Source of the DNA: Candidatus Uhrbacteria bacterium GW2011_GWC2_41_11
Lineage (GTDB): Bacteria; Patescibacteriota; Patescibacteriia; UBA9934; GWF2-40-263
Direction of reading: 5' to 3'
Length of the DNA stretch: 64,000 nucleotides
Assembly (NCBI GenBank): GCA_000996355.1
Contig: LCAH01000001.1
Span: 85,958 to 149,957, forward strand
A program made the position numbers and the translations under genes. Below, piece after piece: positions 15,056-45,824 of this stretch. How positions within the stretch are numbered: the stretch's first letter is position 1; each line of letters starts with the position of its first letter. The notes beneath the pieces were generated by a model. It was not told the DNA's origin. It saw only the letters and a program-made list of their open reading frames with translations, and did not search any database.

Positions 15056-15499
15056 ATGTCTATACTTGAACGAATTCAACAGGAGACAACGGCAGCCATG
15101 AAAGAACATCGAGAGGCGGAACTTTCTACCCTTCGTCTTTTGCGTGCGGCTTTGAAGAATCGACAAATTGAATTATTGCGGGAATTGTCAGATGAGGATG
15201 TTCTTGCCATTGTGCGTTCACAAATAAAACAGATAAAAGATGCAATTGTTTCTTTTGAAGCCGGGCAGCGTGCAGATTTAATTGAGAAGGCAAAAGCGGA
15301 AATAAAAGTGTTGGAACACTATCTTCCTGCTCCTTTATCTCAAGAAGAACTTGTGACAATCGTGCGGACTGCTTTGGAAGCGGCAGGTCTTTCAAAAAAA
15401 ACAGATAAGGGAAAAGCCATGGGTATTGCCATGAAAGCGCTCGCGGGTCGTGCAGATGGAACACAAATAAAAGAGGTTGTTGAGACCTGTTTGGCCTAA
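15056..15499 (+). CDS. yqeY: GatB/YqeY domain protein
   Basis: YqeY-family sequence throughout (…LRLLRAALKNRQIE…KAKAEIKVLEHYLP…GKAMGIAMKALAGRADG). The rpsU-yqeY pairing is typical. Confidence 0.85.
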   Translation: MSILERIQQETTAAMKEHREAELSTLRLLRAALKNRQIELLRELSDEDVLAIVRSQIKQIKDAIVSFEAGQRADLIEKAKAEIKVLEHYLPAPLSQEELVTIVRTALEAAGLSKKTDKGKAMGIAMKALAGRADGTQIKEVVETCLA

Positions 15500-15744: not shown

Positions 15745-15845
15745 CGATTGCGGGATGTTTTTATTTCTCTGGGCATGAGAAATGATTTCGTGTACAATAA
15801 AGAAAAATTGGCTGAGGTTTCATGTTGCAGAGAGGGAACCACAAT

Positions 15846-23700: not shown

Positions 23701-26700
23701 GCGTAGCAAATGGAAAGGAAAACGGAATAGCTATAGCAACAATTACCACAGACGTTGTGGGAAAATCTGTCGGTTCTGAGGTATCCGGCACTGTTTCTCT
23801 TACCGCATTTTTGTGTGAAAATCCTTGGCCAAATCCAGAGGAAACAATTTTTCCTTTTGCCGATACAGCAGAGGCAGGTTTTGATTTTAATTTGAGCTCT
23901 CCTTATACAAATTTTTCCTTTTCCTATTGTCGTGATATGGAAGGAAAAAATACAACACTTCCAGAGCTTCGAGTTGTTGAGACGCCTCAATCTCCTATTT
24001 CAGAAATTTATAAAGAAATTCTTTTCCTTGTTGAAGGAACGAACGATGCAGTCGGTGTTCGTGTTTTTTCCAATGAGAAGTATTTATCCCCAAATGAATG
24101 GTATAAAGATCAGGCATTTACAGGTTCACCAACATCAACACTGTTTGATGGTTATGAGGCGATTCAGGATGGAGATACCTATTATGTGGTTGCGGCGAAC
24201 CAGGATGGAGATACCATTTATCCAAATATTTATGTGATTTCGGTTAATGAAGATGCCGGAGACGAAACAAAACAGATCATGAGTCAAATTCTTAAGAACT
24301 GGTTATTCAATGCCAATAGTGATGTGGTGACCGATTTGAACGTGTGTCGTACTGGTTCAGAGTATCTTACCGATTCAGTGACGGGAGGTTTTGTTTCATG
24401 TGATTGGGATCAAGATTGTCGTCAGGTTACCTATAGTGATAGTTCCTCCGCAGTCGTTCCGGATGGATGGTGTGATGCGCAGAAAGCCAAGTTATCGAGA
24501 GATATGCGTCGTTTGACAGATATTAAAACGATAGAACAGACACTTGATTCGTATGGAGATATTCATCGGCATTGTTCAGCAACGTACAGTCAGGCATGTG
24601 GCACGGATGATGATTGTTCAGGAGATGAAATATGTCTTGCTAATGTCCCTTTAATTCAGAGCGGTTCATTTCTGCGTGCATTTACAACAAGTACCTGGCC
24701 GTCCTGGTCAGCCGTTCTTGCAAATGAACTCGGAACGTCTCTTCCGCAAGATCCAATCAATATATTTGTAAGTTGTCCGGATGGAACTCAAGAAACGTAT
24801 TGTTGGGATGGTACACAAGGAATTTTTCAGTGTCAGGAAGGGTCCCATGCATATCTCTTTCAGAGTGTTGCAGGAGAAAGTTATAATCTTTATGCTCAAC
24901 TTGAAATGGATGAAGCAGATTGGGTCTACAATATAGATGATGACGCGACAGATAATGCCAACATTTTTGTAGAGTATGCACAAAGTTCAAATCCCGATGG
25001 GTTTTATCGGGATAGTGAAATGTGTAGCGGGGTTTTGATAGGAAGTTCAGCAAGGTGTGGGGATGGAGTTTTGGCAACAACAGAAATGTGCGAAATTGGT
25101 CAATCAAAAACAAAAGAATGCGACGCAAATGGAGACGGTGATATGGATGGGACTATTTCTTTAGCATGTATCAATGATGGAGGAATATGTCGATATCAAA
25201 CATCATCTGATTCGAATCTCTCTGAATGTATTTTGTATGAATGTGGCAATGGAGTGATGGATCCGGGAGAAACGTGCGATGATGCAATTTTGAATGGGAC
25301 GTATGGTTTTTGCGATGAAAATTGTTCACTTGCAGGTGCATTTTATTGTGGGGATGGCAGTATAGCCGGAGGAGAAGAATGTGACTGTGGAAGCAATACA
25401 GACACAATGGACACCGGTTCCTGGTCATCGATTCATTGCAGTAAATCAAATGGACAATATACCACGAATCCAGATGGTGGATGTGCGTTTGACTGCACAT
25501 TTCCTGGTCCTTCATGTGGAGATGGAGAAATAAATGGCGATGAAGCGTGTGATGGGGATTATAAGTCTTGGTCTGGCAAACTCTGCGGATCCGCGGATGC
25601 GTATGTCTCTTGTGAAACGGATACTGAATGTATGGATACGGAATGCGGTGATGGTGGATCGTCGTGTCCTATGTCTTCGATTTGTGTCGGGGGAAGTAAT
25701 GCAGGTGCAGCATGTACAGATTCTTTGGATTGCAACAGTGGCGACTGTTCTGATATCACCTATCAGCTTGTTCGATATCGAAGTTGTGACGATTCCGACG
25801 CAACTCCAACGTGCACTTGGAATCAGACAACAAATCCAGGAGATTGGACGGATTGCGTAGGAGGAAATCAATATTGCGGAAATGGAGTTCAGGAAGGAAA
25901 AGAAGAATGTGATGATGGAAATACGGATAACAGTGATGCGTGTACAACTTTATGTAAAATAAATGTGTGTGGAGATGGACATTCGTATAATGGTGTTGAA
26001 ACGTGTGATGAGGGCGACCAAAATGGCGTTGTTTGTACAGCCGATTATCAAGATACTTGTGCGTACTGTACGGTCTCATGTCAATACACAGTTGTTTCAG
26101 GGGCTTATTGCGGCGATCAGGTAATTGAAGAAGAAACAGAATATTGTGATGGAACTTCTGTTTCAAAATTCTGTTTTAAACCGCATGATACTCCGGACGA
26201 ACGTGATGTGACTGGAATGTGTGAAACGGATGCAGATTGCAATGTAAACGCAGGGTATACCTGTGAAACAACAGGTGTTTGTGATGGTGGCTCTCATTTG
26301 TTTGGAAGCGGAGATACAGCGACCTATGCAGACTATAATGGTCTTCCGTGTGTAAGCGGAAGTATAGAGTTTGACGAACGTTGCGGAACAACAAATAGTG
26401 GAACAGGAACATCTGAAGGGGTGTGCGTAGCGCCTGAATGTGCCAGTTCATGTTTTTCTTCTTGTCCTTATACATACGAACAATCTTCTATCTTGATTCA
26501 GACAGAGCTTTCAAATGCAACACAACAAACATCCGCTGACCTTTATAGTTATCTCTCAGGTCAGAGTCCGGACACAGCGCTGCTTTTTTTGCCAGCATGT
26601 ACCGTTGGAACTCAGTTAATGGCTGATATTGATATGTCTGATGTCGAACCTCCGACGGTAGATATTGTATTTGTGACAGATTTGTCTGGAAGTATGACCA

Positions 26701-27965
26701 CGGTGTTGGATACAAAAACAGGAGATAACCGTATTCAAGTGACGGTTGATTCTATGACGCAGGCTATTCAGGATTTATTCGATGATTATGGAGGTAATTC
26801 AGCAAATATGCGTATCTCCACAGTGAGTTTTACTGATTATTTGTCTGATGGTGTTGATACAGATGGAGAAAACGGAATTACAGACAGTGACGGATGTATT
26901 CAAGACACAAAAGATGGTGATGCTCTTGCGTGGATTGATCATGGGCTTGGTTCATCAACGGGAGAAAATGACATGTTATACAATGCGGAAACCGGTGTGG
27001 AAACATATGTAGCACGCGCTCACGGATATACCCCTACTGCTGCCGGACTTAAATGTGCTGATAAGGTTTTACAAAATTCTGATGCTAATTATAAAGTAAT
27101 TGTTTTGTTGAGTGACGGAGAACCAACCATTAATCTTGCTGGAGTGATCAATACATCTACACCAGAATCGAATGTCCCAGAAGTTGTATCTGTGCGCGAT
27201 CAGATGATATCCAAAGGAATTCATATATTTACAGCAGCCTTAACGACAAATACAGATCTTGTCGGATACATGGCTCACTTTTCAAGTGATGTTTGCGGAA
27301 CATGTGATGCGTGTGAATCATCATGTGAAACAAGTTGTGCCTCCGAATGTTCGGGTGAAAGTGCAACAGATCAATCATGTGTTGATGACTGTGAAGCAAA
27401 TGGAGATCTGTGTCTGGAAGATTGTGCAACGGATGTAGATTGTGATGTCGATTGCGACGGTATGGTCGGATCAGCCTTGAGTGCATGTTTAGGAGCGTGT
27501 ACTTCTGCAGTTAATTGTGTAGATACGTGTGAAAAGACCATCAAGTCATGTAAGGACTTGTGTACACCGACGGATGAGGAATGTGAGGATTCTTGTGTAG
27601 ATACATGTACATCTTCATCTTGTGAAGGATCCTGTCTTTCTTACGAAGATGTTAATGATTGTAAACCAAGAGAATCAGTTGAATATGCCTATTCTGCATC
27701 TACCGCAGAAGATCTTGAAACAATGTATCAGACGATCGTGGACAGTATTCTTGGTGTGACTGTTGGATTTACAACGGATTTTGCCGGACAGACGACCTTG
27801 ACATCTGGAGTGGTTGCTGACGGAGATAATGTCATAATGCCGTTTCCAGAAGGATTTGATTGCCGCACAACTGGTGCATGGACCATTCCATTCCGAATAA
27901 GTTTTGCAGGAACAGGGGTTGTTCATATCAGTGATATTTCTTTGAATTATTGTCCGATAGATTAA
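17709..27965 (+). CDS. Giant (3418 aa) cell-surface protein: signal peptide, TrbC/VirB2-like pilin module, IPT/TIG repeats, Myxococcus-type cysteine-rich repeats, vWA domain, Cys-rich C-terminus
   Basis: Uninterrupted 10.26-kb ORF. The N-terminal module ITLIIARLIRVVLGTLGVVAVAFVLYGGFLWMTSRGEDLKIKKAKMIMTNALIGLIIVLSSFAIAQFV is paralogous to the 15846 gene. Four IPT/TIG-like units (IFPGDGAPGNLMTISGNGFG, VQGNNFG, IYGSHFG, FFGEEFG). At least eight repeats of CGNGxxExGEECDDGNxxxGDGCSxxC. A vWA with MIDAS DLSGSM...SDGEPT near the C-terminus, then a Cys-rich tail. Confidence 0.85.
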   Translation: MKTRFFFISCFVILFWGISAQWFDIPPALAQAIQTNEAFGGVAPESFAETAGLAGGDITLIIARLIRVVLGTLGVVAVAFVLYGGFLWMTSRGEDLKIKKAKMIMTNALIGLIIVLSSFAIAQFVISRLSSATGAGTTTEGTEKTTYNDVLDASATFVLRSVNTECASAIRNLELQFIFSQNVSVSTVNDSGIVVSRADGDPVSGSFETSGSRVTFIPSATCTTSDGIEVHCFDAETVYEVNLSSAVLKSSSGRTLECSETYPCHQTFTTGSGFDTKKPDIQMTSPDDGGSAYSGTAELLQALTSDDSGVSSLEFSLDGDAVDVAGLDESSALALAMENIFYGEWDTVGYVTNKMYHFSAEGFDCGGNSDTSSEIDVVLRAPNCNNDIQDAEDPYFEDGVDCGGNQSDEYYCGACNGSSCIENSDCASGSCAENICVYSAEIEAIFPGDGAPGNLMTISGNGFGNTQGTILFLGSIDDDTDDVSVGPYTACDGTWTDNQIVIQLDEKMVSGPVELVTSDGFRDRTDDENGPLISDFEVNTTVRPGLCRVDPEKASGKDTVTVQGNNFGDNQGSSVLYFDTSTASSYPSWASNSLKAVVPLLDTGSYDLQLFGGNGDTREGSNKLIFNINSTSSSSEPPVISDVDTGVKRCEDEKGFICTDDADCVAGIPCAEDKNAGPISQYVTIYGSHFGTTPGTVRFRNQDLDLVALADTNFPDSCGEDFWDNDSILVKVPKIYDLSDGHALNVGLHDLWVVRGEDGTVSDPVDFEVIEGKAGPSICAVEPDAGPPGTDVSFFGEEFGSDKGSVIFYENQKVSPGAWSDEQISGTIQNPLQVPTQAKTGPVKIQADDGQYSNSVSFEVGMCDVDFSCGSGQECCADGACRIEETCKESIPVSHYAYFFSTGDIPEAPEVIIECSDTYISPTPWEFWEGGTDVCLTAAVAASFSEPMDTKTFTSSTISVEKCLLANCDSTTAVEMSPKGNPTSMAETSFFWEPAQDFEPETRYRITVKGGENGVKSVQGVAMEKDSQWEFVTAPSGNECTIGGVYLTPAKFTATEKEQRVQYTVAPISDEYQCLLLSCTNHQWTYNSSDPSKADFAEFENACSLKVAVHKETNPGVPVVITSWLYDNGNLGPNDTADLTINFTDPKIIDFWPGCDSVCLNASVSAVFNIDMKDEFSGFEIGGDHMVRLYECEDPGCTSDELTEVNDRSVTYDLETFTVTIRSNTDLKTDTSYRVVFSGELTSTSDVSLSKSASDLAYGDDFSWIFTTKDEACAVNRVEVTPEQVTLTIIGERQTFQATPYSAPDDCSENGQALNGDHYQWSAWTAEDVENNVEDADVVQLMVDGKIRVSETFPAYCSSSSCNTIGSNTPVAICGNNTVHCTTDANCVAYGADATCNDFGQCVEPGEDCDDGNVTENDGCSSICLTEGVTACVSLTDVGCCGNGVREGREECDDKNTKNGDGCSSVCLNEGAKALKYDCGDGKVAQSASTGGEECDWKEENDVYGCSSNCLNVGSISKEDLYAICGNGAQENGEDCDDKNTKNGDGCSSTCQNEGSSSSYSSVCGNNKITCHKNVDCSSYGSGTQCNVLGQCVQTGEDCDDGNIEDGDGCSFNCLFEGSSVEYTNPSICTDGTIGTGEACDAEEVGTVIAGFGVAEITTDAPEEVTISGTGTASSTVTATEGTSGVTGFATVTLECSCTSDVSCGDAEVYGCGDANCCFERPHILLPTTPANGKTDVCRNTAVAVDFDQIMDETSFKQTIGEGENQTVELNMYLELTAVNGTKITDANATTLCPASYHKEVAFADELSNPLVRIWDWLVRGVAKLFNHVYAAEISCQLAVSYSIEKTDTGSKVYVNYGEALQANGTYRLIVMGDSDDLDGKSDGVKSTYGVALLEDISTTFTVGNEICALEAVQVTDEGKEIVTEFDDASSGFFSEQGEQHTLTTTAFTLHGANQEEIQEIAGVYDWNWSWDSTSSDTEADNAVSVTKADTTQTTAVGVANGKENGIAIATITTDVVGKSVGSEVSGTVSLTAFLCENPWPNPEETIFPFADTAEAGFDFNLSSPYTNFSFSYCRDMEGKNTTLPELRVVETPQSPISEIYKEILFLVEGTNDAVGVRVFSNEKYLSPNEWYKDQAFTGSPTSTLFDGYEAIQDGDTYYVVAANQDGDTIYPNIYVISVNEDAGDETKQIMSQILKNWLFNANSDVVTDLNVCRTGSEYLTDSVTGGFVSCDWDQDCRQVTYSDSSSAVVPDGWCDAQKAKLSRDMRRLTDIKTIEQTLDSYGDIHRHCSATYSQACGTDDDCSGDEICLANVPLIQSGSFLRAFTTSTWPSWSAVLANELGTSLPQDPINIFVSCPDGTQETYCWDGTQGIFQCQEGSHAYLFQSVAGESYNLYAQLEMDEADWVYNIDDDATDNANIFVEYAQSSNPDGFYRDSEMCSGVLIGSSARCGDGVLATTEMCEIGQSKTKECDANGDGDMDGTISLACINDGGICRYQTSSDSNLSECILYECGNGVMDPGETCDDAILNGTYGFCDENCSLAGAFYCGDGSIAGGEECDCGSNTDTMDTGSWSSIHCSKSNGQYTTNPDGGCAFDCTFPGPSCGDGEINGDEACDGDYKSWSGKLCGSADAYVSCETDTECMDTECGDGGSSCPMSSICVGGSNAGAACTDSLDCNSGDCSDITYQLVRYRSCDDSDATPTCTWNQTTNPGDWTDCVGGNQYCGNGVQEGKEECDDGNTDNSDACTTLCKINVCGDGHSYNGVETCDEGDQNGVVCTADYQDTCAYCTVSCQYTVVSGAYCGDQVIEEETEYCDGTSVSKFCFKPHDTPDERDVTGMCETDADCNVNAGYTCETTGVCDGGSHLFGSGDTATYADYNGLPCVSGSIEFDERCGTTNSGTGTSEGVCVAPECASSCFSSCPYTYEQSSILIQTELSNATQQTSADLYSYLSGQSPDTALLFLPACTVGTQLMADIDMSDVEPPTVDIVFVTDLSGSMTTVLDTKTGDNRIQVTVDSMTQAIQDLFDDYGGNSANMRISTVSFTDYLSDGVDTDGENGITDSDGCIQDTKDGDALAWIDHGLGSSTGENDMLYNAETGVETYVARAHGYTPTAAGLKCADKVLQNSDANYKVIVLLSDGEPTINLAGVINTSTPESNVPEVVSVRDQMISKGIHIFTAALTTNTDLVGYMAHFSSDVCGTCDACESSCETSCASECSGESATDQSCVDDCEANGDLCLEDCATDVDCDVDCDGMVGSALSACLGACTSAVNCVDTCEKTIKSCKDLCTPTDEECEDSCVDTCTSSSCEGSCLSYEDVNDCKPRESVEYAYSASTAEDLETMYQTIVDSILGVTVGFTTDFAGQTTLTSGVVADGDNVIMPFPEGFDCRTTGAWTIPFRISFAGTGVVHISDISLNYCPID

Positions 27966-27967
27966 AT

Positions 27968-28849
27968 ATGAATGTATTTGATGAATCTCCTTCGGAAAGA
28001 CCTCTTTTTTTCCAGAAACGTTTTTTAATGATTGCAGGAGCAATGGTTGTTTTTATTCTTCTTATTTTTTTTGTCTGGAATGTCGTCTCACATCGAAATG
28101 AAACAAAACAACAGGAAGGTCTAGTAAAACAAGCAACTGCGGAATTGGAAAAAGCGCTTGCTCTATGTCAGAAGTCAGATGATCCAACCGGTTGTGCTCA
28201 AACAAAGATAGGAGAAACAGCTATACGTATTGGAGCAGCAATCATTTGTACAAAACTCGATGGGGAGGCAAAAGATAATTGTGTTTTGGGTACGGCTCTT
28301 GAACATGGTCAGATAAAGGATTGTGATTTGATGGAAGATAAAGAAGGAAAGACTTCATGTGAGGATGCCGTGTATCAGCGTCTTGCTTACGAAGAAAATC
28401 ATTTAGACTATTGCAATAAAATGGAGAGTTCTCTTGGAAAAGATCGGTGTTTAGATGGAGTGAGTTATCAAATAGCTGTTAAACAGGGATGCGGGGAAAA
28501 AACAGGAATCGAACCATCCGTCTGCGAAGCGATTCAGACGCTTGAAAGAGTTATCGCAAGTCAGGATCCTTCTCAATGTATGAATATATTTCAAGAAAAC
28601 GATCGTTCTGTTTGTTTGGAAGCGATTGGGTCAGGGGATCGTGACCATGATGATTTAACAGGGGATCAGGAAACACGTTTCGGAACAAGTGATACGAATC
28701 CAGATACAGACGGAGATGGTCTCACAGACAAAGATGAAATAATGGTGTGGGGAACGAATCCTCTTGTGTCTGATTCGGATGGAGATCATTTTACAGATGC
28801 CGAGGAAGTTCAAGGAGGATATAATCCGCTTGGCGCAGGACGTTTATAG
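27968..28849 (+). CDS. Membrane-anchored protein with a Cys-rich region and C-terminal thrombospondin type-3-like Ca-binding repeats (paralog 1 of 3)
   Basis: ATG 3 nt after the giant gene's stop. TM helix MIAGAMVVFILLIFFVW; C-terminus DTNPDTDGDGLTDKDEIMVWGTNPLVSDSDGDHFTDAEEVQGGYNPLG. Confidence 0.7.
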   Translation: MNVFDESPSERPLFFQKRFLMIAGAMVVFILLIFFVWNVVSHRNETKQQEGLVKQATAELEKALALCQKSDDPTGCAQTKIGETAIRIGAAIICTKLDGEAKDNCVLGTALEHGQIKDCDLMEDKEGKTSCEDAVYQRLAYEENHLDYCNKMESSLGKDRCLDGVSYQIAVKQGCGEKTGIEPSVCEAIQTLERVIASQDPSQCMNIFQENDRSVCLEAIGSGDRDHDDLTGDQETRFGTSDTNPDTDGDGLTDKDEIMVWGTNPLVSDSDGDHFTDAEEVQGGYNPLGAGRL

Positions 28850-28894
28850 GAATATACTTAAAAGAGTTATTTTTTACGATTGTGTTTTCTTTTT

Positions 28895-29557
28895 ATGTTT
28901 GAGAACGTAAAAAAAGAGCCTGAGGATATTTTTGCTGGAAGCGAAGGGGCTGTCCCGACTCCACCTCCTCCTGTTGCTCTTGCGGGTCAATCTCTTTCTT
29001 CTTCTCGGGAAATTTCTTCGTCCCCCATTTCATCGGAGCAAACCAGAGAAAAACAGACATCTCATTGGTCATGGAAAATGATCGGAATAGTTGGGATGGC
29101 AATTGTCATTGTTGCTGTGGCAGGCGTATTGTCTTCTCGAATTTTAGCAAGTCGTACAAAATCGTCAGATCGCGTTCCTTCTGTGCAAACAGACGAAGAA
29201 AAGATGCAAGAATTAAAAAAAGAGACAGAAAAAATACCAAAAACAACCTCTGAACAAAATAAACCTCAAGAACAAACGTCTGTTATTTTTCCAACTCCAA
29301 TTGTTGTTCCAGAACCAGACGCAGATAAAGATGGTCTTTCTGATGCACAGGAGGCAGAAATTGGAACGAGTCCAACAAATGCAGATACAGATGGTGACGG
29401 GTTGTTTGATCAGGAAGAGGTTGCTGTTTATAAAACCAATCCTCTGAACCCTGATACGGATGGAGATACGTATTTGGATGGAAAGGAAGTATCAAGCGGA
29501 TATAATCCAAATGGTTCTGGAAAATTATTTACTGTTCCAACAGAGGTTGCCCCGTGA
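28895..29557 (+). CDS. Membrane-anchored protein with thrombospondin type-3-like repeats (paralog 2 of 3)
   Basis: ATG at 28895 (the track's TTG at 28880 is the alternative). TM IGIVGMAIVIVAVAGVL; C-terminus PDADKDGLSDAQEAEIGTSPTNADTDGDGLFDQEEVAVYKTNPLNPDTDGDTYLDGKEVSSGYNPNG. Confidence 0.7.
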   Translation: MFENVKKEPEDIFAGSEGAVPTPPPPVALAGQSLSSSREISSSPISSEQTREKQTSHWSWKMIGIVGMAIVIVAVAGVLSSRILASRTKSSDRVPSVQTDEEKMQELKKETEKIPKTTSEQNKPQEQTSVIFPTPIVVPEPDADKDGLSDAQEAEIGTSPTNADTDGDGLFDQEEVAVYKTNPLNPDTDGDTYLDGKEVSSGYNPNGSGKLFTVPTEVAP

Positions 29558-29581
29558 TAAATACACGTCTTACATAGTGTT

Positions 29582-30589
29582 ATGCCGGATCGTTCTCTAT
29601 CAGTGATTGAAACTCCGGAAGAGGTAAACAAACATTCTGTTGATCCTCTTATTTTTACGATGCCTGAAAAGTATCGGGGGCTTGCCGTTACACAAAAATC
29701 AGTTACACAAAAAACAGTTGTTCCTTTTTCAGGGTCACCTGTTGTTTCTCCACCTGCACCTGTATCTCCGAAAGCTGTTCCGTCTCCACTTTTAAAATCG
29801 AAAATGGCACGATCAACAAAGATTTTACTTATTGCTGGCGGTGTTTTCATTCTGGGAATGGGAGGAACAGGTATTTATTTTGTTTTTTTACGATCTCAAC
29901 CTGCACAACAGCAGGAAATTGTCTCTAAACCGGTTGTCAAAGAACCTATAAAACAAGAACAACCGAAGCCAGTTGTTAAAGAGGAGCCGTCAAAGGAAAA
30001 AATACCTGTTTCGCCTTTTCCGAAAGAATTACTTCCTGGTCGTGATACGGACAGTGATGGATTAACAGATGTGGAAGAAGTTGTATTTGGAACCAATAGC
30101 GGACTTCCAGATTCAGACGCTGACGGATATCTCGATGGAAATGAAGTATCGCATGGATATAATCCAAAAGGAACAGCACCGACAACATTGCTCGAATCTG
30201 GTGCTATAAAAGAATATGCCGCACCTGGAGCCGTCTATCGTTTTTTTTATCCAATTGGCTGGACAACACGAACAGGAGAAATCGATCCGTTGCAAGTCAT
30301 ATTGGTTGTTCCAAGCGGGGAAACAGTGACGGTTACATTGGCGGCAAAAAATGTCACTCAATCTCTGATAGAGTGGTACACTCAAGCGCATCCTGAACGA
30401 CCAGGAACAGATTTTGTTTCAACAACCACAAAAAAAGGATACCCATCCCTTCTTTCGAAAGATCAAATGACTGCCTATGTGGATGCAGGGACAGTTGTGG
30501 CTGCGTTTTTCTATCAATCAGGAACGAAGACGACTCTGGATTATCTCCAGACATTTCAAATGATTTTGAATAGTTTGATTTTAAGTTGA
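29582..30589 (+). CDS. Membrane-anchored protein with thrombospondin type-3-like repeats plus an extra C-terminal domain (paralog 3 of 3)
   Basis: TM ILLIAGGVFILGMGGTGIYFVF; DTDSDGLTDVEEVVFGTNSGLPDSDADGYLDGNEVSHGYNPKG; then about 140 extra residues. Confidence 0.7.
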   Translation: MPDRSLSVIETPEEVNKHSVDPLIFTMPEKYRGLAVTQKSVTQKTVVPFSGSPVVSPPAPVSPKAVPSPLLKSKMARSTKILLIAGGVFILGMGGTGIYFVFLRSQPAQQQEIVSKPVVKEPIKQEQPKPVVKEEPSKEKIPVSPFPKELLPGRDTDSDGLTDVEEVVFGTNSGLPDSDADGYLDGNEVSHGYNPKGTAPTTLLESGAIKEYAAPGAVYRFFYPIGWTTRTGEIDPLQVILVVPSGETVTVTLAAKNVTQSLIEWYTQAHPERPGTDFVSTTTKKGYPSLLSKDQMTAYVDAGTVVAAFFYQSGTKTTLDYLQTFQMILNSLILS

Positions 30590-31068
30590 ATTCTGTGAAA
30601 ATTCAGGTCGAATGGAACCAATCACGTTTACGTGGTGGTCAGTGCTTACCGCATGTGTTTATCCAGCAAATGGTGGATAAAACGGAACAATATATTCATG
30701 GGAAAGGAAATAAATTCGTTTCTGTCGCGTTTGTTTCTCCCAAGGAAATACGTCGTCTGAATCGAGATTATCGTGGAAAAGATGTCGTGACAGATGTGTT
30801 ATCTTTTCCTCTTCATACGGATGTGTTGGCTGGGGAAGTTTTGATTTGTTTTGAACAAGCAAGACTTCAGGCTCAAGAACAAGGTCATGGTATCCGCAAA
30901 GAGATTGGTATTTTATTTGTGCATGGATTGTTGCATATTTTTGGGTTTGATCATGAAACGAAACAGGATCGAAAAAAAATGTTTCTTCTTCAAACGAAAA
31001 TTCTCGCTCAGGTAGGTATTTCTTGGAAGGATCCTTTTTCTGATGCGGAAAAGACAAAAAAAATATGA
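30586..31068 (+). CDS. ybeY: rRNA maturation endoribonuclease YbeY
   Basis: DVLSFPL and the His-triad motif HGLLHIFGFDHE; 4-nt overlap with the upstream gene. Confidence 0.88.
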   Translation: MNSVKIQVEWNQSRLRGGQCLPHVFIQQMVDKTEQYIHGKGNKFVSVAFVSPKEIRRLNRDYRGKDVVTDVLSFPLHTDVLAGEVLICFEQARLQAQEQGHGIRKEIGILFVHGLLHIFGFDHETKQDRKKMFLLQTKILAQVGISWKDPFSDAEKTKKI

Positions 31069-31436
31069 TTCAATTGAGCCGTCTTTTTCAGAGTTTTTGT
31101 CATGCAATGCGTGGACTGAAAATAATCTTTCAATCCGAACAGAGTTTTCGTATTCAAGTTTTTGCTGCTTGTGTTGTTGGAATATTCCTTTTTATGTTTC
31201 CACTTTCTAGGAGTCAGACTGTTGTTATTTTGTTTTTGATGGCCTTTGTTCTCATTCTTGAAATGATTAACAGTATTTTTGAACGTTTAGTTGATGCATT
31301 TAAACCACGTATTCATCCGGTCGTTGGAGAAATAAAAGATATTATGGCAGCGACGGTACTTGTCGCATCTGTTGTCGCAGCATGTATTGGACTTGTAATT
31401 TTTGGACCTCATTTTTTTCGCTTGTTTTTGTCTTGA
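31065..31436 (+). CDS. dgkA: Diacylglycerol/undecaprenol kinase family protein
   Basis: 123-aa, 3-TM protein with LEMINSIFERLVDAF matching the DgkA signature; overlaps ybeY by 4 nt. Confidence 0.8.
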   Translation: MIQLSRLFQSFCHAMRGLKIIFQSEQSFRIQVFAACVVGIFLFMFPLSRSQTVVILFLMAFVLILEMINSIFERLVDAFKPRIHPVVGEIKDIMAATVLVASVVAACIGLVIFGPHFFRLFLS

Positions 31437-31480: not shown

Positions 31481-32743
31481 ATGTCGGAAGACGTGATTAT
31501 TGGTTTAGATATCGGTTCACACGCGGTTCGGGTGGCTGTCGGTCAACCTGTTCCAAGCGTGGAAGGAAAGACAAACCAAATGCACATTATTGGTGCAATA
31601 GAAGTTCCATCTGAAGGGATGAGCAGAGGAAATGTCTCAAGCATCGAAGATGCAGTTTCTTCAGTTTCAAAAGTATTGGAACAAACGGAACGTCTGACTG
31701 GATTACCGCTAAGTCGTGCTTGGGTGGGAATTTCAGGTACGCATATTATTGCTCAAGAAAGCCGGGGAGTTATTGGAGTGGCAAGAAGTGATGGAGAAAT
31801 TCGTGAAGAAGATGTTGAACGTGCGATTGAGGCAGCGCGCACAGTTGCTATGCCAACTAATCATGAAATTTTGCATGTGATTCCTCGAAGTTTTACCGTT
31901 GACGGTCAGAGAGGTATCAAAGATCCTGTAGGGATGAACGCGATTCGGCTTGAGGTGGATGCCTTGATTATTCAGGGTCTTAGTTCACAAATCAAAAATT
32001 TAACAAAGTGTGTTTATCGGACAGGATTAGATATTGAGGATCTTGTTTTTTCTATTTTAGCTACGGCAGAAGCAGTGGTGACAAATAAACAAAAAGATCT
32101 GGGGGTGTGTGTAATCAATATTGGTGCTTCCACCACCAGTTTGATTATTTTTGAAGAAGGAGACGTTCTTCATACCGTTGTTCTTCCCATTGGGTCTTCC
32201 CATATTACCTCTGATCTCGCCATTGGTCTTCGAACATCTTTGGATGTGGCAGAGCAGGTTAAAATTCGATACGGTCATGCCTTGCCTGAAGAAGTTGATA
32301 AAAAAGAAGAAATCAATTTAGCTGAACTTGGAGCCCAAGATGAAGAATATGTTGGACGACGTTTTATTGCAGATATTATTGAAGCACGTGTGCAGGAAAT
32401 TTTTGAGAAAGTTGATGCAGAACTTTCAAAAGTGGAACGATCCGGCATGCTTCCGGCCGGTGTTGTCCTCACAGGCGGAGGAGCAAAATTGGCTGGGATG
32501 CTTGAAACGGCAAAACGATCCCTTCGACTCCCGACATCTCTTGGAACGCCCATTGGTGTGACTTCAGTTGTGGAACGTATGAATGATCCAGCAATGAGCA
32601 CAGCAATCGGTCTCGTATTGTGGGGATATAATATTGCATCCTCGACTGAGAGTCATCGGTTTAGTGGAGTTTTTTCAAAAGTGAAGAATGTCAAAAAGAT
32701 GGCAAGTGGTCTTGGAAAGTGGTTTAAGTCCTTGCATCCATAA
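31481..32743 (+). CDS. ftsA: Cell division protein FtsA
   Basis: Actin-fold ATPase; N-terminal VIIGLDIGSHAVRVAVG; directly upstream of ftsZ. Confidence 0.92.
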   Translation: MSEDVIIGLDIGSHAVRVAVGQPVPSVEGKTNQMHIIGAIEVPSEGMSRGNVSSIEDAVSSVSKVLEQTERLTGLPLSRAWVGISGTHIIAQESRGVIGVARSDGEIREEDVERAIEAARTVAMPTNHEILHVIPRSFTVDGQRGIKDPVGMNAIRLEVDALIIQGLSSQIKNLTKCVYRTGLDIEDLVFSILATAEAVVTNKQKDLGVCVINIGASTTSLIIFEEGDVLHTVVLPIGSSHITSDLAIGLRTSLDVAEQVKIRYGHALPEEVDKKEEINLAELGAQDEEYVGRRFIADIIEARVQEIFEKVDAELSKVERSGMLPAGVVLTGGGAKLAGMLETAKRSLRLPTSLGTPIGVTSVVERMNDPAMSTAIGLVLWGYNIASSTESHRFSGVFSKVKNVKKMASGLGKWFKSLHP

Positions 32744-32921
32744 AAGTGATTTTTTTACAAGAAGCATATACAGACCCTGGGGATGGTTTGTGTATTTTTT
32801 TATTTGACAACTTTTTTTTTGCGACCTACAGTGTATACGATTTTTGCACAGTTGAGCGTAAAATTGACGAAAAAATGTATTCAAGAGGAATAAAAAAACA
32901 AATGCTTTGAACACTTTTTGT

Positions 32922-34214
32922 ATGGCTGAAGTAAAACCCGATATTGAGACGTTCGCTAAAATTAAAGTTTGTGGAATTGGCGGAGGAGGTGGAGCTGCTA
33001 TTAACCGAATGATTACGGATAAAATTAAAAGTGTTGATTTTATTGCTATCAATACCGACATTCAGGCACTTCACCACAGTCTTGCGTCTGTGAAGATTGC
33101 GATTGGAAAGACGGTGACACGCGGACTTGGAGCAGGAATGAATCCTGATCTTGGTCGACGGGCAGCAGAAGAAAATCAAAATGAAATTCGTAATGCATTG
33201 AATGGGGCAGACATGGTCTTTTTAACTTGCGGACTCGGAGGCGGTACCGGAACAGGTGCAGTGGGTGAAGTTGCCAAACTTGCAAAAGATATTGGTGCTT
33301 TGACAGTTGCGGTTGTGACAAAACCATTTGCGTTTGAAGGTGCACAACGTCGACGCATCGCGGAAGAGGGATTTAATCAATTGATTCAATACGTCGATAC
33401 AGTGATTACAATCCCAAATGACCGTGTTCTTCAAATTATTGATAAAAAAACATCGCTTATTGATGCGTTTAATATTGTTGATGATGTTTTGCGTCAGGGT
33501 GTTCAAGGAATTTCCGAATTGATTACCATTCCTGGTTTGATTAATGTGGATTTTGCAGATGTGAAAGCTATCATGGAAAATGCCGGTTCTGCCCTTATGG
33601 GTATTGGTCGTGCCTCTGGAGAAAATCGTGCAGTGGAAGCCGCAAAACAAGCGATCGCCAGCCCATTGCTTGAACTGTCTGTAGATGGAGCCAAAGGTAT
33701 TTTGTTTACGATTACGGGAGGCCATGATCTTGGTATGCATGAAGTGGCCGAAGCTGCGAAAGTAGTGACTGGCTCTGCAGATGAAGATGCAAAAATTATT
33801 TTTGGTGCGATTATTGATGAAGATTTGAAAGAAGAAGTTCGTATCACGGTTGTGGCAACAGGTTTTGATCATCATGAACGTCGGCGCGGTTCCGGATCTG
33901 TCGAAGTCCCTGTTCAAGGGACGTGGACACCGAGTGCATTTCTTCGTGTGCGTGAAGAAGAAGAACGAAAAGAACGAATACGACCAACTATTTCTTCATC
34001 AACGCCTTTATCTTCTTCTGTATCCTCTGTATCTTCTATCTCGCTTAAACCACGACCTATTTTTGAAGAAGCCCGTCCTATTTCAACATCTCAAGCAGTT
34101 GTTCATTCTTCTCCTCCACCTTCTATGCCAAAACTTGCACCAAAAGTGCAACCACCTCCAACAGAGGAAGAGGAATTAGAGATTCCGGCATTTATTCGAA
34201 AGAAAATGATGTAA
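32922..34214 (+). CDS. ftsZ: Cell division protein FtsZ
   Basis: Tubulin signature GGGTGTGAVGEVAKLAKDIGALTVAVVTKPFAFEG; long Ser/Pro linker; conserved C-terminal peptide EELEIPAFIRKK. Start taken at ATG 32922 (the track's TTG at 32907 is the alternative). Confidence 0.93.
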   Translation: MAEVKPDIETFAKIKVCGIGGGGGAAINRMITDKIKSVDFIAINTDIQALHHSLASVKIAIGKTVTRGLGAGMNPDLGRRAAEENQNEIRNALNGADMVFLTCGLGGGTGTGAVGEVAKLAKDIGALTVAVVTKPFAFEGAQRRRIAEEGFNQLIQYVDTVITIPNDRVLQIIDKKTSLIDAFNIVDDVLRQGVQGISELITIPGLINVDFADVKAIMENAGSALMGIGRASGENRAVEAAKQAIASPLLELSVDGAKGILFTITGGHDLGMHEVAEAAKVVTGSADEDAKIIFGAIIDEDLKEEVRITVVATGFDHHERRRGSGSVEVPVQGTWTPSAFLRVREEEERKERIRPTISSSTPLSSSVSSVSSISLKPRPIFEEARPISTSQAVVHSSPPPSMPKLAPKVQPPPTEEEELEIPAFIRKKMM

Positions 34215-39318: not shown

Positions 39319-39528
39319 ATGGATGATTCACTTCTTTTTACTGGAAAAGCACCAGAACAAATCGTGAAGGAAGCTGTTCAAATTGTTGATCGTCTTCATC
39401 AAGATTTGCGGCAAGTGGAAGAGGAACGCAGACAACGGATGTTTCAAATTATCGAGGAAGGAGAACAACGAGCTGTGGCAAAATTATGGAAACGGATCGA
39501 ACGTTTGTTTGGCCTTGTTACAAGATAA
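39319..39528 (+). CDS. Hypothetical small protein (69 aa)
   Basis: ORF only; weak translation signals; charged and helical. Confidence 0.35.
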   Translation: MDDSLLFTGKAPEQIVKEAVQIVDRLHQDLRQVEEERRQRMFQIIEEGEQRAVAKLWKRIERLFGLVTR

Positions 39529-39536
39529 TTTTTTCT

Positions 39537-40046
39537 ATGGATGAAGATATTCAAAATCAAAAAGAACAAGAAATCGAAAGAGGGGAAGTGACACAAGAAC
39601 AGGAAGCAGAAGTTCGTGCAGACTTTAAAGATACACGTGAAGCAGAAGTGTTTTATAAAAACATTTTAGAGAGAGAAAAAAAACGTGGCAGTTCTCATGA
39701 AGAAGCATCTCGTATTGCTTTACGCGAAACACTTACACAATTGTCCAAACTTATGGATCGTCGAACAATACGTGCGGTTCGATCCATCCAAACAGGTTCA
39801 GAAATTGTTTCTAGTGCCCTTAGTCGCATCCGTGAGGAAGACGCACCCGGATTGAAACATTTTACAGCTGAGACCCTTGAGGCAATGAGGCAAGCAAAGG
39901 AACGAACACAAGCAGCTAGACAACAAATAGGAGGATTGATTGAGGTTGTTTCAGGTGGCTCTGAACCAAGATCCGAAGAAACGCAAGCTGAAATGATAAA
40001 AATTCGAAAAGAAATAGAAGAAGGAAGAAAAAAAGAATCTGTTTAA
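39537..40046 (+). CDS. Hypothetical coiled-coil protein (~169 aa)
   Basis: ORF from the internal ATG 39537, after the preceding ORF's stop. Highly charged E/R/K-rich helical sequence. Confidence 0.45.
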   Translation: MDEDIQNQKEQEIERGEVTQEQEAEVRADFKDTREAEVFYKNILEREKKRGSSHEEASRIALRETLTQLSKLMDRRTIRAVRSIQTGSEIVSSALSRIREEDAPGLKHFTAETLEAMRQAKERTQAARQQIGGLIEVVSGGSEPRSEETQAEMIKIRKEIEEGRKKESV

Positions 40047-45640: not shown

Positions 45641-45824
45641 TTATGGAATAAGAGTCCCTCCACATGCCTCAAAATCATCCAGACAGAAATTGCATAAACT
45701 CCTTCGAGTCCCGTCCGTTCCGTTGTAAAAAACTCAGTTCACGCTGATTTTTTTGTATAAACAACAAACCCCGCGTCGAACGACGGTTAACCCGAGTAGG
45801 GTTTGTCGTTTCGCGCAGGGTGAA

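What the first reader, a model, noticed from the sequence alone, without database searches (positions are those of the whole stretch)
27968..30589. Three tandem paralogous membrane proteins with thrombospondin type-3-like repeats and a shared (S/Q)xGYNPxG C-terminal motif
All three have one TM helix and a low-complexity spacer. They then carry 2-3 copies of a D-x-D-x-D-G-x-x-D-x-x-E Ca-binding-type repeat, ending in GGYNPLG, SGYNPNG or HGYNPKG. The third adds a ~140-aa C-terminal domain. They follow the giant adhesin directly and run in the same orientation, so they are probably co-transcribed. Ca-binding TSP3 repeats are typical of matrix and OmpA-like proteins. Their role here is unknown; they may tether or process the giant protein.
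Basis: partly seen in the sequence, partly recalled or inferred. Interest (0 to 1): 0.55.

Follow-up and report, generated by a model that had tools for sequence, protein, structure and literature searches.

The report
Calcium-binding membrane proteins beside giant adhesin
Three small single-pass membrane proteins of an uncultured ultra-small bacterium (Candidatus Uhrbacteria) carry calcium-binding repeats on the outside of the cell; two of them form a conserved, uncharacterised pair that sits between a giant surface protein gene and the cell-division genes ftsA and ftsZ, so they are probably parts of that surface structure.

Summary
Genes A (27968-28849), B (28895-29557) and C (29582-30589) each encode one TM helix and 2-3 bacterial TSP3 repeats. 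Pfam PF18884 scores are A 40.6, B 49.2 and C 22.1 bits (cut-off 25). The repeat is a 12-residue EF-hand-type DxDxDGxxDxxE loop plus a short helix.

Three corrections apply:
- Similarity between the three is confined to the ~50-70 aa TSP3 module.
- A has a 12-cysteine structured domain, not a low-complexity spacer.
- "GYNPxG" is not a separate motif. It is the modified second half of the last repeat and caps the module.

C's extra domain has a PsbP/Mog1-like fold. B and C each carry a near-invariant cytoplasmic motif: B has MF..EPEDIF, C has h-x-T-M-P-x-x-F/Y.

Synteny is very strong. The order is pilin-fusion, giant pilin-fusion, [A], B, C, ybeY, dgkA, ftsA, ftsZ. It holds in about 55 of 63 species-level loci, and in 32/32 metagenome loci found from the giant's tail. 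The conserved unit is the B-C pair; A is lineage-specific.

The most likely role is as calcium-stiffened, membrane-anchored accessory subunits of the giant surface protein. This is inferred, not shown. An FtsA-linked adaptor role is not excluded. The repeat is known; the architecture and locus are uncharacterised.

The parts
27968..28849 (+). Gene A: 293 aa bitopic membrane protein (short N-tail, TM, Cys-rich domain, 3 TSP3 repeats; ends exactly at GYNPLGAGRL)
   Evidence: ORF; Pfam TSP3_bac 40.6 bits; full-length orthologs of 267-299 aa; alignment A3. The public annotation is truncated to 172 aa (P0121).
28022..28078 (+). A: transmembrane segment (residues 19-37)
   Evidence: Kyte-Doolittle 19-residue mean of 2.88
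28169..28615 (+). A: cysteine-rich ectodomain (residues 68-216, six C-x7-11-C pairs)
   Evidence: 9 invariant Cys in alignment A3; no Pfam or NCBIfam family
28637..28846 (+). A: TSP3 module (residues 224-293; first repeat degenerate) with cap GYNPLGAGRL
28895..29557 (+). Gene B: 220 aa bitopic membrane protein (cytoplasmic motif, Pro-rich tail, TM, low-complexity spacer, 3 TSP3 repeats, cap)
   Evidence: ORF; Pfam 49.2 bits; alignment A2 of 46 orthologs; AlphaFold model
28895..28936 (+). B: conserved cytoplasmic N-terminal motif MFENVKKEPEDIFA
   Evidence: M1, F2, D11 and F13 invariant, P9 >=90% in A2; an EDIF-like motif in 51 of 67 B-position ORFs
29072..29152 (+). B: transmembrane helix (residues 60-86)
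29318..29527 (+). B: three TSP3 repeats plus cap GYNPNGSGKL (residues 142-211)
   Evidence: pLDDT >93, three loop-plus-short-helix units; matches Staphylococcus Bap 7c7u by sequence at E 3e-5 and by structure at rmsd 0.6 A over 44 columns
29582..30589 (+). Gene C: 335 aa bitopic membrane protein (cytoplasmic motif, Pro-rich tail, TM, P/K/E spacer, 2 TSP3 repeats, PsbP-like domain)
   Evidence: ORF; 131 homologs, P0001 100% identical from Ca. Uhrbacteria GW2011_GWF2_41_16; alignment A1; model
29645..29680 (+). C: conserved cytoplasmic motif LIFTMPEKYRGL (h-x-T/V-M/I-P-x-x-F/Y)
   Evidence: P28 invariant and M27 >=90% in A1; the regex found the motif in 61 of 67 C-position ORFs; 5 of the 6 misses carry a close variant and the sixth is a truncated locus
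29810..29893 (+). C: transmembrane helix (residues 77-104)
30044..30190 (+). C: two TSP3 repeats plus cap HGYNPKGTAPTTL (residues 155-203)
   Evidence: D155, D157, D159, E165, E166, D177, D179, D181 and D185 invariant; Y193 and P195 >=90%; pLDDT >95
30191..30586 (+). C: C-terminal PsbP/Mog1-like alpha-beta domain (residues 204-335)
   Evidence: pLDDT 88-98; Foldseek PDB hits to BT_1490, CyanoP, PsbP, Mog1 and Tsi3, E 1.6e-5 to 1e-3, TM(target) up to 0.57
17709..27965 (+). Context: giant 3418 aa surface protein (N-terminal T4SS_pilin-type hairpin anchor, TIG/Big_5 domains, Cys-rich repeats, C-terminal VWA with an intact MIDAS sequence D-L-S-G-S at residue 2991)
15822..17699 (+). Context: 625 aa T4SS_pilin + Big_5 fusion protein
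   Evidence: conserved upstream of the giant gene in relatives
30586..31436 (+). Context: ybeY (30586-31068, overlaps the C stop by 4 bp) and dgkA (31065-31436)
31481..34214 (+). Context: ftsA (31481-32743) and ftsZ (32907-34214)
32766..32795 (+). First convincing intergenic terminator-like hairpin downstream of the cluster (after ftsA)
   Evidence: 11-pair stem followed by TTTTTTATTT

Best explanation
A, B and C are single-pass (N-in, C-out) membrane proteins of a Patescibacteria (Ca. Uhrbacteria) cell envelope.

Outside the membrane each displays a small, very acidic module of 2-3 bacterial TSP3 repeats. Each repeat is a 12-residue EF-hand-type loop (D1-x-D3-x-D5-G6-x-x-D9-x-x-E12) followed by a short helix. 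A Patescibacteria-type cap, G-Y-N-P-x-G-x-G-K/R-L, closes the module. Each repeat probably binds one Ca2+, which would stiffen the module.

B and C are an old, conserved pair. Each has its own invariant short cytoplasmic motif. C, and in some lineages also B, ends in a PsbP/Mog1-like protein-binding domain. A is a lineage-specific third member with a disulfide-type ectodomain.

The pair is almost always encoded directly after, and probably co-transcribed with, a giant surface protein anchored by a T4SS-pilin-like hairpin. The most likely role is therefore as accessory subunits at the membrane-proximal base of that protein. They would form a calcium-rigidified pedestal that holds or organises the giant protein at the cell surface, with the cytoplasmic motifs giving it an intracellular contact.

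Shown: the architecture, the repeat family, the fold of C's domain, the motifs and the gene linkage. Inferred: topology, Ca2+ binding, any physical contact with the giant protein, and any partner of the cytoplasmic motifs.
For: Repeat family and anatomy:
- Pfam PF18884 matches.
- The loop positions 1, 3, 5, 6, 9 and 12 fit the EF-hand consensus and are invariant across orthologs.
- Models are confident for the modules, pLDDT >93.
- The closest solved relative is the calcium-sensing tandem motif of Staphylococcus Bap. Sequence E is 3e-5; structure rmsd is 0.6 A over 44 columns at 52% identity. In Bap these motifs bind Ca2+ and stabilise the fold (PMC7785521).

Extracellular location: A has 9 invariant cysteines. 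The flanks of C's TM carry 4 positive charges on the N side and 1 on the C side (from the sequence).

C domain fold: PsbP/Mog1-like.

Linkage to the giant gene:
- Giant-homologous sequence lies upstream in 49 of 53 B-C loci. In at least two of the other four (L057, L065) large divergent ORFs lie there.
- Starting instead from the giant's C-terminal 459 aa, A follows in 32/32 loci, B in 27/27 and C in 21/21 where the contig continues.
- In L052, L062, L063 and L065, ybeY-dgkA are displaced and clpP-secDF intervene. In L039, mreC-pbp2 follow instead. In all five the pair stays attached to the giant gene(s).

Co-transcription: the gaps are 2, 45 and 24 bp with no terminator-like site.
Against: - No direct evidence of contact between these proteins and the giant protein.
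- The giant's C-terminal half is variable. VWA is found only in the Uhrbacteria-type giants; others have Ig, lectin or fn3 domains. Any conserved contact would have to be with its N-terminal region.
- One locus (L082, Falkowbacteria) keeps B-C between yqeY and ybeY with no giant gene.
- B-like and A-like proteins also occur alone in unrelated contexts (L068, L079, L083).
- The same TM-plus-two-TSP3-repeat module precedes other ectodomains in Saccharibacteria and other groups. The module itself is therefore generic.
- Linkage to ybeY-dgkA-ftsA-ftsZ is about as strong as linkage to the giant gene.
- Small streamlined genomes can keep gene order without functional coupling.
Confidence: 0.45

Rival explanations
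1. B and C are division- or morphogenesis-linked bitopic adaptors, working like FtsN or PilN/PilO. Their short conserved cytoplasmic peptides would bind the actin-like FtsA encoded three genes downstream. Their ectodomains would contact the wall or surface layer. The giant gene would be only a neighbour.
For: - FtsA lies within 3 kb in 52 of 57 loci and ybeY is adjacent in 54 of 59.
- In L039 the pair is followed by MreC and a PBP2-type transpeptidase.
- L082 keeps B-C next to ybeY-ftsA without a giant gene.
- The architecture is that of FtsN and PilN: a conserved motif in a disordered cytoplasmic N-tail, then a TM, a linker and an ectodomain. Both of those bind the IA-IC cleft of FtsA/PilM through their N-tails (PMC7613929).
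- C's motif (I-H/F-T/V-M/I-P) resembles the PilN N-terminal motif as I recall it. I could not confirm this in a paper.
- The window's FtsA has the SHS2/1C domain and also scores on PilM_2.
Against: - No binding test was possible.
- In four loci 7-9 kb of unrelated genes separate C from ftsA while the giant gene stays adjacent.
- There is no SPOR, POTRA or other known divisome ectodomain.
- ybeY and dgkA are housekeeping genes whose adjacency is ancestral in many bacteria (own knowledge). The position near ftsAZ may therefore be inherited gene order.
Confidence: 0.15
2. They are generic envelope proteins. The TM + spacer + TSP3 module would be a common Patescibacteria way of holding an ectodomain at a fixed distance in the wall or S-layer through Ca2+. 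The conserved position next to the giant gene and ftsAZ would reflect frozen gene order, not a shared machine.
For: - The same module follows a TM helix in unrelated proteins of Saccharibacteria, Azambacteria, Portnoybacteria and Yanofskybacteria.
- Stand-alone B-like and A-like paralogs exist.
- TSP3 repeats sit next to the peptidoglycan-binding OmpA_C domain in Bacteroidota relatives.
- 51,220 library proteins match the profile, mostly through the repeats.
Against: - A generic spacer does not explain the family-specific invariant cytoplasmic motifs of B and C.
- The B-C pairing itself is conserved across sequence identities down to about 25%.
- The pair moves together with the giant gene when the downstream genes change.
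Confidence: 0.25
3. The TSP3 modules are specific docking elements. They would be either dockerin-like plugs for a cohesin-like domain, or acidic ligands for the MIDAS site of the giant protein's VWA domain. The second idea follows what is proposed for the COMP-like domain of Myxococcus CglD with the VWA adhesin CglB.
For: - The giant protein has a VWA domain with an intact MIDAS sequence.
- NCBIfam gives repeat-level hits to CglD and MtsD.
- The CglD preprint proposes COMP-domain to VWA contacts and Ca2+ dependence (10.1101/2023.10.19.562135).
- Dockerins are also paired Ca2+ loop-helix repeats (own knowledge).
Against: - A Foldseek search of the B model against PDB returns only Bap and weak binary-toxin Ca2+ domains, and no dockerin.
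- No Dockerin_1 Pfam hit.
- VWA is undetectable in the giants of many lineages that keep B-C.
- The CglD/MtsD scores (12-32 bits) are far below the family cut-offs of 350-800 bits.
Confidence: 0.05
4. They process or mature the giant protein, for example by cleavage or covalent attachment.
For: Only gene adjacency.
Against: No catalytic domain or motif appears in Pfam, NCBIfam or the fold search. The conserved residues are Ca2+-loop residues and short linear motifs.
Confidence: 0.03

Closest known systems
Bacterial TSP3 repeat proteins (Pfam PF18884), e.g. Bacteroidota OmpA-family proteins with TSP3 repeats before OmpA_C
   Same: Same 22-23 residue repeat, DxDxDGLxDxxE....T(D/N)Pxxx. Identity is 55-67% over the repeat region.
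   Different: The proteins here have no beta-barrel or lipoprotein signal and no OmpA_C domain. They have an N-terminal signal-anchor TM instead, only 2-3 repeats, and a different terminal cap: GYNPxGxGKL versus MGTDPLDPNDP in the OmpA proteins. The host is a Patescibacteria cell, generally regarded as lacking an outer membrane (own knowledge). The repeats contain no cysteine, unlike the disulfide-dependent OmpA TSP3 repeats named in the title of Dai et al. 2017 (seen only as a citation).
Staphylococcus Bap region B tandem Ca2+-binding motifs (PDB 7C7U, 7C7R)
   Same: This is the closest solved structure. Sequence E is 3e-5. The structural match is 44 columns at rmsd 0.6 A and 52% identity. 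In Bap these DxDxDG motifs sense Ca2+ and stabilise the fold (PMC7785521).
   Different: Bap is a >2000 aa sortase-type surface protein that forms amyloid-like aggregates. Only the ~45-residue Ca2+ motif pair is shared.
Eukaryotic thrombospondin/COMP type 3 repeats (Pfam PF02412)
   Same: Asp-rich DxDxDG Ca2+-binding repeats in extracellular proteins. In C the repeats directly precede a globular domain, as the type 3 repeats precede the C-terminal domain in thrombospondins (own knowledge).
   Different: No PF02412 match at E<=1. No disulfide-forming cysteines in the repeats. The repeat has regular EF-hand-like 12-residue spacing.
PsbP / Mog1 / DUF1795-type domains (CyanoP 2XB3, PsbP 1V2B, BT_1490 3HLZ, Mog1 1EQ6, Tsi3)
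   Same: The C-terminal domain of C has this alpha-beta sandwich fold. The matched structures include known protein-binding proteins, such as the Ran-binding protein Mog1 and the Tse3-neutralising immunity protein Tsi3 (descriptions).
   Different: Sequence identity is only 9-16%. No Pfam PsbP hit; NCBIfam PSII_PsbP scores 13 bits against a cut-off of 60. The domain is fused to TSP3 repeats and a membrane anchor. There is no link to photosynthesis.
FtsN and PilN (bitopic proteins whose cytoplasmic N-tails bind FtsA / PilM)
   Same: A short conserved motif in a disordered cytoplasmic N-tail, then one TM, a linker and an ectodomain. The genes lie close to an FtsA gene. B and C form an adjacent paralogous pair, as PilN/PilO do (PMC7613929; own knowledge for PilO).
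   Different: No sequence or fold similarity. No SPOR or ferredoxin-like ectodomain. Binding to FtsA is untested.
Myxococcus CglD / MtsD TSP3-repeat surface proteins
   Same: Ca2+-binding TSP3/COMP-like repeats on surface proteins that act together with a VWA-domain adhesin.
   Different: Only repeat-level similarity: 12-32 bits against cut-offs of 350-800. CglD is a 1130 aa lipoprotein that itself contains the VWA domain.

Membership tests
Bacterial TSP3 repeat (Pfam PF18884 TSP3_bac) | Profile match at or above the gathering score (25 bits) | tested here: met
   A 40.6 and B 49.2 bits. C scores 22.1 bits, just below, but many C orthologs carry precomputed PF18884 hits.
Bacterial TSP3 repeat (Pfam PF18884 TSP3_bac) | DxDxDG loop with acidic residues at positions 9 and 12, repeated every 22-23 residues | tested here: met
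   The loop residues are invariant in 45-46 orthologs.
Bacterial TSP3 repeat (Pfam PF18884 TSP3_bac) | Ca2+ binding | not testable with these tools
   Inferred from the motif and from Bap.
Eukaryotic thrombospondin type 3 repeat (Pfam PF02412 TSP_3) | Profile match | tested here: not met
   No PF02412 hit at E<=1 for any of the three proteins.
Eukaryotic thrombospondin type 3 repeat (Pfam PF02412 TSP_3) | Disulfide-bonded cysteines within the repeats | tested here: not met
   No Cys in any repeat (sequences).
OmpA-like TSP3 proteins | C-terminal OmpA_C (PF00691) peptidoglycan-binding domain | tested here: not met
   No PF00691 hit in A, B or C. It is present in the Bacteroidota hits.
Dockerin | Dockerin_1 profile match or dockerin fold match | tested here: not met
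   No Pfam hit. A Foldseek search of the B model found no dockerin at E<=10.
PsbP/Mog1 fold superfamily (C-terminal domain of C) | Fold similarity to solved members | tested here: met
   Foldseek probability 1.00, E 1.6e-5 to 1e-3, TM(target) 0.34-0.57 over 146-178 columns. The model is confident.
PsbP/Mog1 fold superfamily (C-terminal domain of C) | Sequence-profile membership in PsbP | tested here: not met
   No Pfam hit. NCBIfam PSII_PsbP gives E 0.054 and 13.1 bits against a cut-off of 60.
FtsN/PilN-type FtsA/PilM-binding bitopic proteins | Conserved cytoplasmic N-terminal peptide followed by a single TM | tested here: met
   This is an architectural resemblance only.
FtsN/PilN-type FtsA/PilM-binding bitopic proteins | Binding of the peptide to the IA-IC cleft of FtsA/PilM | not testable with these tools
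   No complex prediction was available. The precedent is in PMC7613929.
FtsN/PilN-type FtsA/PilM-binding bitopic proteins | SPOR domain (FtsN) or ferredoxin-like PilN/PilO ectodomain | tested here: not met
   The ectodomains are TSP3 repeats and a PsbP-like fold.

The most novel reading that the evidence does not exclude
B and C form a transmembrane adaptor pair found across several Patescibacteria lineages (records titled Uhrbacteria, Falkowbacteria, Buchananbacteria, Kerfeldbacteria and relatives). In this reading their invariant cytoplasmic peptides (MF..EPEDIF and h-x-T-M-P-x-x-F/Y) dock onto the actin-like FtsA, or onto MreB-associated machinery. Their calcium-stiffened ectodomains hold the giant pilin-anchored surface protein. 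Placement of the host-contact or adhesion structure would then be coupled to the cell-division cytoskeleton. This would be an integrin- or PilMNO-like inside-out link in ultra-small bacteria.
Probability: 0.12. Interest if true: 0.7.

Novelty: new variant of a known kind. Interest (0 to 1): 0.45.

Why it matters
Patescibacteria are thought to live attached to other cells, yet how their surface structures are built and anchored is almost unknown. This locus gives a concrete, widely conserved candidate: one or two proteins anchored by a T4SS-pilin-like hairpin plus a pair of small Ca2+-binding bitopic proteins. It is conserved down to about 25% identity and physically linked to ftsA and ftsZ.

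The work also defines two uncharacterised protein families (B and C) with diagnostic motifs, and a capped '2-3 x TSP3' domain. These could be turned into profiles for annotation.

It further shows that the public gene calls for A and B are N-terminally truncated. As a result the membrane anchor of A and the cytoplasmic motif of B are missing from databases.

If the cytoplasmic motifs prove to bind FtsA, this would be a new type of link between the divisome and a surface adhesin.

Tried and rejected
- Eukaryotic TSP_3 profile PF02412: no hit. The bacterial profile PF18884 is the right family.
- Dockerin-like reading: no dockerin in Pfam or in the Foldseek search of the B model.
- VWA-MIDAS ligand reading: an iterative HMM built from the window's VWA found it in only 19 of the upstream giants. 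Pfam on ten distant giant tails found Ig, lectin, CarboxypepD_reg and fn3 domains but no VWA.
- FtsQ/DivIB-like reading for C, considered because of its position upstream of ftsA: the ectodomain is PsbP-like, not POTRA.
- Promoter scan: no more sites than in shuffled sequence, so uninformative.
- Literature: no paper in the library links thrombospondin-type repeats to Patescibacteria proteins. The only hits concern Omnitrophota giant proteins. The recalled PilN 'INLLP' motif could not be confirmed by search.
- First metagenome scan attempt: the 14-sequence alignment was too diverse. It was repeated with 7 sequences.
- tRNA and Rfam scans of the window: only two tRNAs, nothing in the cluster.
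- The profile search of the representative library is dominated by huge multi-TSP3 proteins. It gives only a lower bound of about 70 clusters for the C family.

Full report
**Source and context.** Protein C is 100% identical to a hypothetical protein of Candidatus Uhrbacteria bacterium GW2011_GWF2_41_16. The window is therefore from a Patescibacteria (CPR) genome of about 41% G+C. The surroundings are housekeeping genes: parB, relA/spoT, topA, dprA, pth, der, an LCP-family gene, lepB and hisS. Then come yqeY, a 625 aa T4SS_pilin + Big_5 fusion (15822-17699) and a 3418 aa giant protein (17709-27965). The giant has a T4SS_pilin-type N-terminus, TIG/Big_5 domains, Cys-rich repeats and a C-terminal VWA. 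The three genes of the finding follow. After them come ybeY, dgkA, ftsA and ftsZ, then a class I Trp/Tyr-type tRNA synthetase gene, nrdR, htrA and pyk.

The three ORFs are A 27968-28849 (293 aa), B 28895-29557 (220 aa) and C 29582-30589 (335 aa).
- Each has a single strongly hydrophobic segment: A 19-37, B 62-80, C 81-99. These are modelled as helices in B and C.
- The pattern D.D.DG..D..E occurs five times in the six-frame translation of the whole window. GYNPxG occurs three times. All occurrences lie in these genes.
- Pfam assigns the repeats to PF18884 (bacterial TSP3 repeat), with A 40.6, B 49.2 and C 22.1 bits against a cut-off of 25. The eukaryotic PF02412 gave no hit at E<=1.

**Corrections to the description.**
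- Pairwise similarity is restricted to the repeat module: A-B 56% over 70 aa, B-C 47% over 77 aa, A-C 54% over 46 aa. The genes are paralogous at the domain level only.
- A has no low-complexity spacer. Between the TM and the repeats lie about 150 residues with twelve cysteines in six C-x7-11-C pairs. Nine are invariant among nine full-length homologs. This indicates a disulfide-bonded, hence extracytoplasmic, domain.
- GYNPxG is not an independent C-terminal signal. Internal repeats read DxDxDGLxDxxE(v)xxxxT(N/D)Pxxx. The last repeat reads DxDxDx(Y/F)xDGxEVxxGYNPxGxG(K/R)L. The motif is therefore the modified second half of the terminal repeat.
- In the models the motif forms a small hairpin. 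There are beta-bridges at Y203 and about residue 210 in B, and at Y193 and about residue 202 in C.
- A ends exactly after the motif. B ends 5-10 residues later. C continues into another domain. B-like proteins with two modules repeat the cap after each module.
- Bacteroidota OmpA-type TSP3 proteins end their arrays differently, with MGTDPLDPNDP.

**What the module is.** The loop residues at positions 1, 3, 5, 6 (Gly), 9 and 12 (Glu) follow the EF-hand loop consensus. They are invariant in 45 C orthologs and 46 B orthologs. Each loop is followed by a short helix, and the module is predicted with pLDDT >93.
- The only solved relatives found are the tandem Ca2+ motifs of Staphylococcus Bap region B (7C7U, 7C7R). 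Sequence E is 3e-5. The structural match has rmsd 0.6 A over 44 columns at 52% identity.
- There are also weak matches to the Ca2+ domain of binary toxins.
- In Bap these motifs mediate the response to Ca2+ and stabilise the fold (PMC7785521).
- No dockerin was matched.
- Ca2+ binding by A, B and C is thus a well-founded inference, not a result.

**The extra domain of C.** With a 45-sequence alignment, residues 150-335 are modelled at pLDDT about 90-98. A Foldseek search against PDB returns BT_1490, cyanobacterial and plant PsbP, Mog1 and Tsi3. E-values run from 1.6e-5 to 1e-3, with TM-scores normalised to the target up to 0.57. This is the PsbP/Mog1-type alpha-beta sandwich, and several of the matched proteins are protein-binding proteins. 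Sequence profiles do not place it in PsbP.

B and C each have a disordered, proline-rich cytoplasmic N-tail that carries a family-specific short motif.
- B starts M-F-(D/E) and has (E/P)-P-E-D-I-F. M1, F2, D11 and F13 are invariant. An EDIF-like motif is present in 51 of 67 B-position ORFs.
- C has h-x-(T/V)-(M/I)-P-x-x-(F/Y). P28 is invariant and M27 is >=90% conserved. The regex found this motif in 61 of 67 C-position ORFs. Five of the six misses carry a close variant, and the sixth is a truncated locus.
- Neither motif occurs anywhere else in the window.
- Public gene calls start A at residue 122 (P0121, 172 aa, named 'Fibronectin type III domain protein'). They start B at residue 62 (P0164, 159 aa). 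The anchor of A and the motif of B are therefore lost.

**Synteny, forward direction.** Starting from C, look-ups of diverged orthologs (25-49% identity) all gave the same order: giant pilin-fusion, one or two small TSP3 genes, C, ybeY, dgkA, ftsA, ftsZ, nrdR. A scan of one genome per species returned 80 loci. Their record titles include Uhrbacteria, Falkowbacteria, Buchananbacteria, Kerfeldbacteria and unclassified Patescibacteria. Among 84 non-duplicate loci, 63 carry an adjacent B-C pair:

| Feature | Count |
|---|---|
| ybeY adjacent | 54 of 59 |
| ftsA within 3 kb | 52 of 57 |
| Sequence homologous to the window's giant gene upstream | 49 of 53 |
| Clusters with two TSP3 genes | 33 loci |
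| Clusters with three TSP3 genes | 23 loci |

In at least two of the remaining four loci (L057, L065) large divergent ORFs lie upstream. The core is therefore B-C, and A is a lineage-specific addition.

**Synteny, reverse direction.** Starting from the giant's C-terminal 459 residues, 32 metagenome loci were found at 28-47% identity. Wherever the contig continues, an A-type gene follows the giant in 32/32, B in 27/27, C in 21/21 and ybeY in 19/19. The smaller pilin-fusion precedes the giant. That criterion is clearly not met.

**Which neighbour matters.**
- In L052, L062, L063 and L065 the giant is split into two ORFs and ybeY-dgkA are gone. In L063, clpP, secD, secF and a Wzy_C/TPR gene lie between C and ftsA-ftsZ, yet B-C stay directly after the giant ORFs.
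- In L039 the pair follows the giant and is followed by mreC and a PBP2-type gene.
- Conversely, L082 has yqeY, a 180 aa gene, B, C, ybeY and ftsA with no giant.
- That makes roughly two independent events favouring linkage to the giant and one favouring linkage to the ybeY-ftsA side. This is suggestive, not decisive.
- The giant's tail is variable. VWA with an intact MIDAS sequence (D2991-L-S-G-S) occurs in the window and in about 19-22 related giants. It is absent from ten distant tails tested. A TSP3-VWA contact therefore cannot be the conserved function.

**Transcription.** The gaps are 2 bp (giant-A), 45 bp (A-B) and 24 bp (B-C). C/ybeY and ybeY/dgkA each overlap by 4 bp. No terminator-like hairpin lies in these gaps. 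The first good intergenic one is after ftsA, at 32766-32795. Promoter-like matches were no more frequent than in shuffled sequence. One long transcription unit is plausible but unproven.

**Breadth of the module.** The TM + short spacer + two-repeat TSP3 module (ending G-(Y/H/F)-(N/D)-P) also precedes unrelated ectodomains in proteins from records titled Saccharibacteria, Azambacteria, Portnoybacteria and Yanofskybacteria. B-like ('MFENV...') and A-like proteins also occur alone in housekeeping contexts. In L024, L026, L028 and L034 the B-position protein ends in the same C-terminal sequence pattern as C's PsbP-like domain, and in L028 that region also gave a tblastn hit. This supports B and C as ancient paralogs. 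The C-family profile finds at least about 70 full-length cluster representatives at 50% identity. It also finds tens of thousands of proteins that share only the repeats.

**Interpretation.** The best-supported reading (confidence about 0.45) is as follows. A, B and C are N-in/C-out envelope proteins. Their Ca2+-stiffened TSP3 modules, together with C's PsbP-like binding domain and A's disulfide domain, act as accessory subunits at the base of the giant pilin-anchored surface protein.

The rivals are:
- an FtsN/PilN-like adaptor role toward FtsA (0.15; precedent in PMC7613929);
- a generic envelope spacer with inherited gene order (0.25);
- a specific dockerin- or MIDAS-ligand role (0.05);
- a processing role (0.03).

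I found no description of these families or of this locus in the searchable literature. The Patescibacteria T4SS paper covers VirB2-like pilins but not these genes.

**Verdict.** The repeat is a known kind. The capped module, the two motif-bearing bitopic families and the conserved locus are an uncharacterised variant of moderate interest.

Noticed in passing
window 17709-27965; L052, L062, L063, L065: The 3418 aa giant gene corresponds to two separate large ORFs in some relatives. The second ORF starts with a signal peptide followed by 'DAIAVRVxxNP'. In the window that sequence is internal ('NDAVGVRVFSNEKY', around residue 2000). The window's giant therefore looks like a fusion, or the relatives' genes like a split, of two proteins.
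   Followed up: partly
window 26679-26693 (giant residues 2991-2995): The giant protein's C-terminal VWA domain has an intact MIDAS sequence (D-L-S-G-S, later T and D). The VWA tail is found only in the Uhrbacteria-type giants. Other lineages have Ig, lectin, CarboxypepD_reg or fn3 tails.
   Followed up: yes
window 27968-28330 and 28895-29077: Public gene calls truncate A to 172 aa (P0121, named 'Fibronectin type III domain protein') and B to 159 aa (P0164). This removes the TM anchor of A and the conserved cytoplasmic motif of B. Ortholog alignments support the longer starts.
   Followed up: yes
L010-L012, L019, L020, L025 and many others: Many species-representative MAGs carrying this typical Patescibacteria locus are titled 'uncultured Gammaproteobacteria bacterium' (TPA_asm records). 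This is almost certainly a taxonomic mislabel.
   Followed up: no
L039 8613-14103: In this relative the B-C pair is followed by MreC, an MreD-sized membrane protein and a PBP2-type transpeptidase instead of ybeY-dgkA-ftsA. Its C protein carries both an 'VQDIF' and an 'IYVMPEKF' motif in one N-tail.
   Followed up: partly
L024, L026, L028, L034 (B-position genes of 374-412 aa): In this lineage the B-type protein (EPEDIF motif) ends in the same C-terminal sequence pattern as C's PsbP-like domain. In L028 that region also gave a tblastn hit to C's domain. Both members of the pair therefore appear to have the globular ectodomain.
   Followed up: partly
L068 9308-10144; L079 9377-10153: Stand-alone B-like paralogs ('MFENV...', Asn/Thr-rich spacer, two TSP3 repeats plus cap) sit after a ~240-250 aa gene that looks like rsmE by eye (not profile-checked), in a housekeeping context with no giant gene. 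L079 is from the same contig as L057, which has the canonical locus.
   Followed up: partly
window 2706-3941, 10922-12211 (-), 39486-40046, 43766-44545 (-), 45101-45640, 45753-46475, 46912-48273: Seven sizeable ORFs have no Pfam family at E<=1e-4. They were not examined further.
   Followed up: no
window 15056-15499 and 30586-31436: The whole pilin-fusion/TSP3 block sits between yqeY and ybeY-dgkA. As I recall, these genes lie in one housekeeping neighbourhood in Firmicutes. If so, the block looks like an insertion into an ancestral gene order (plus own knowledge; not tested).
   Followed up: no
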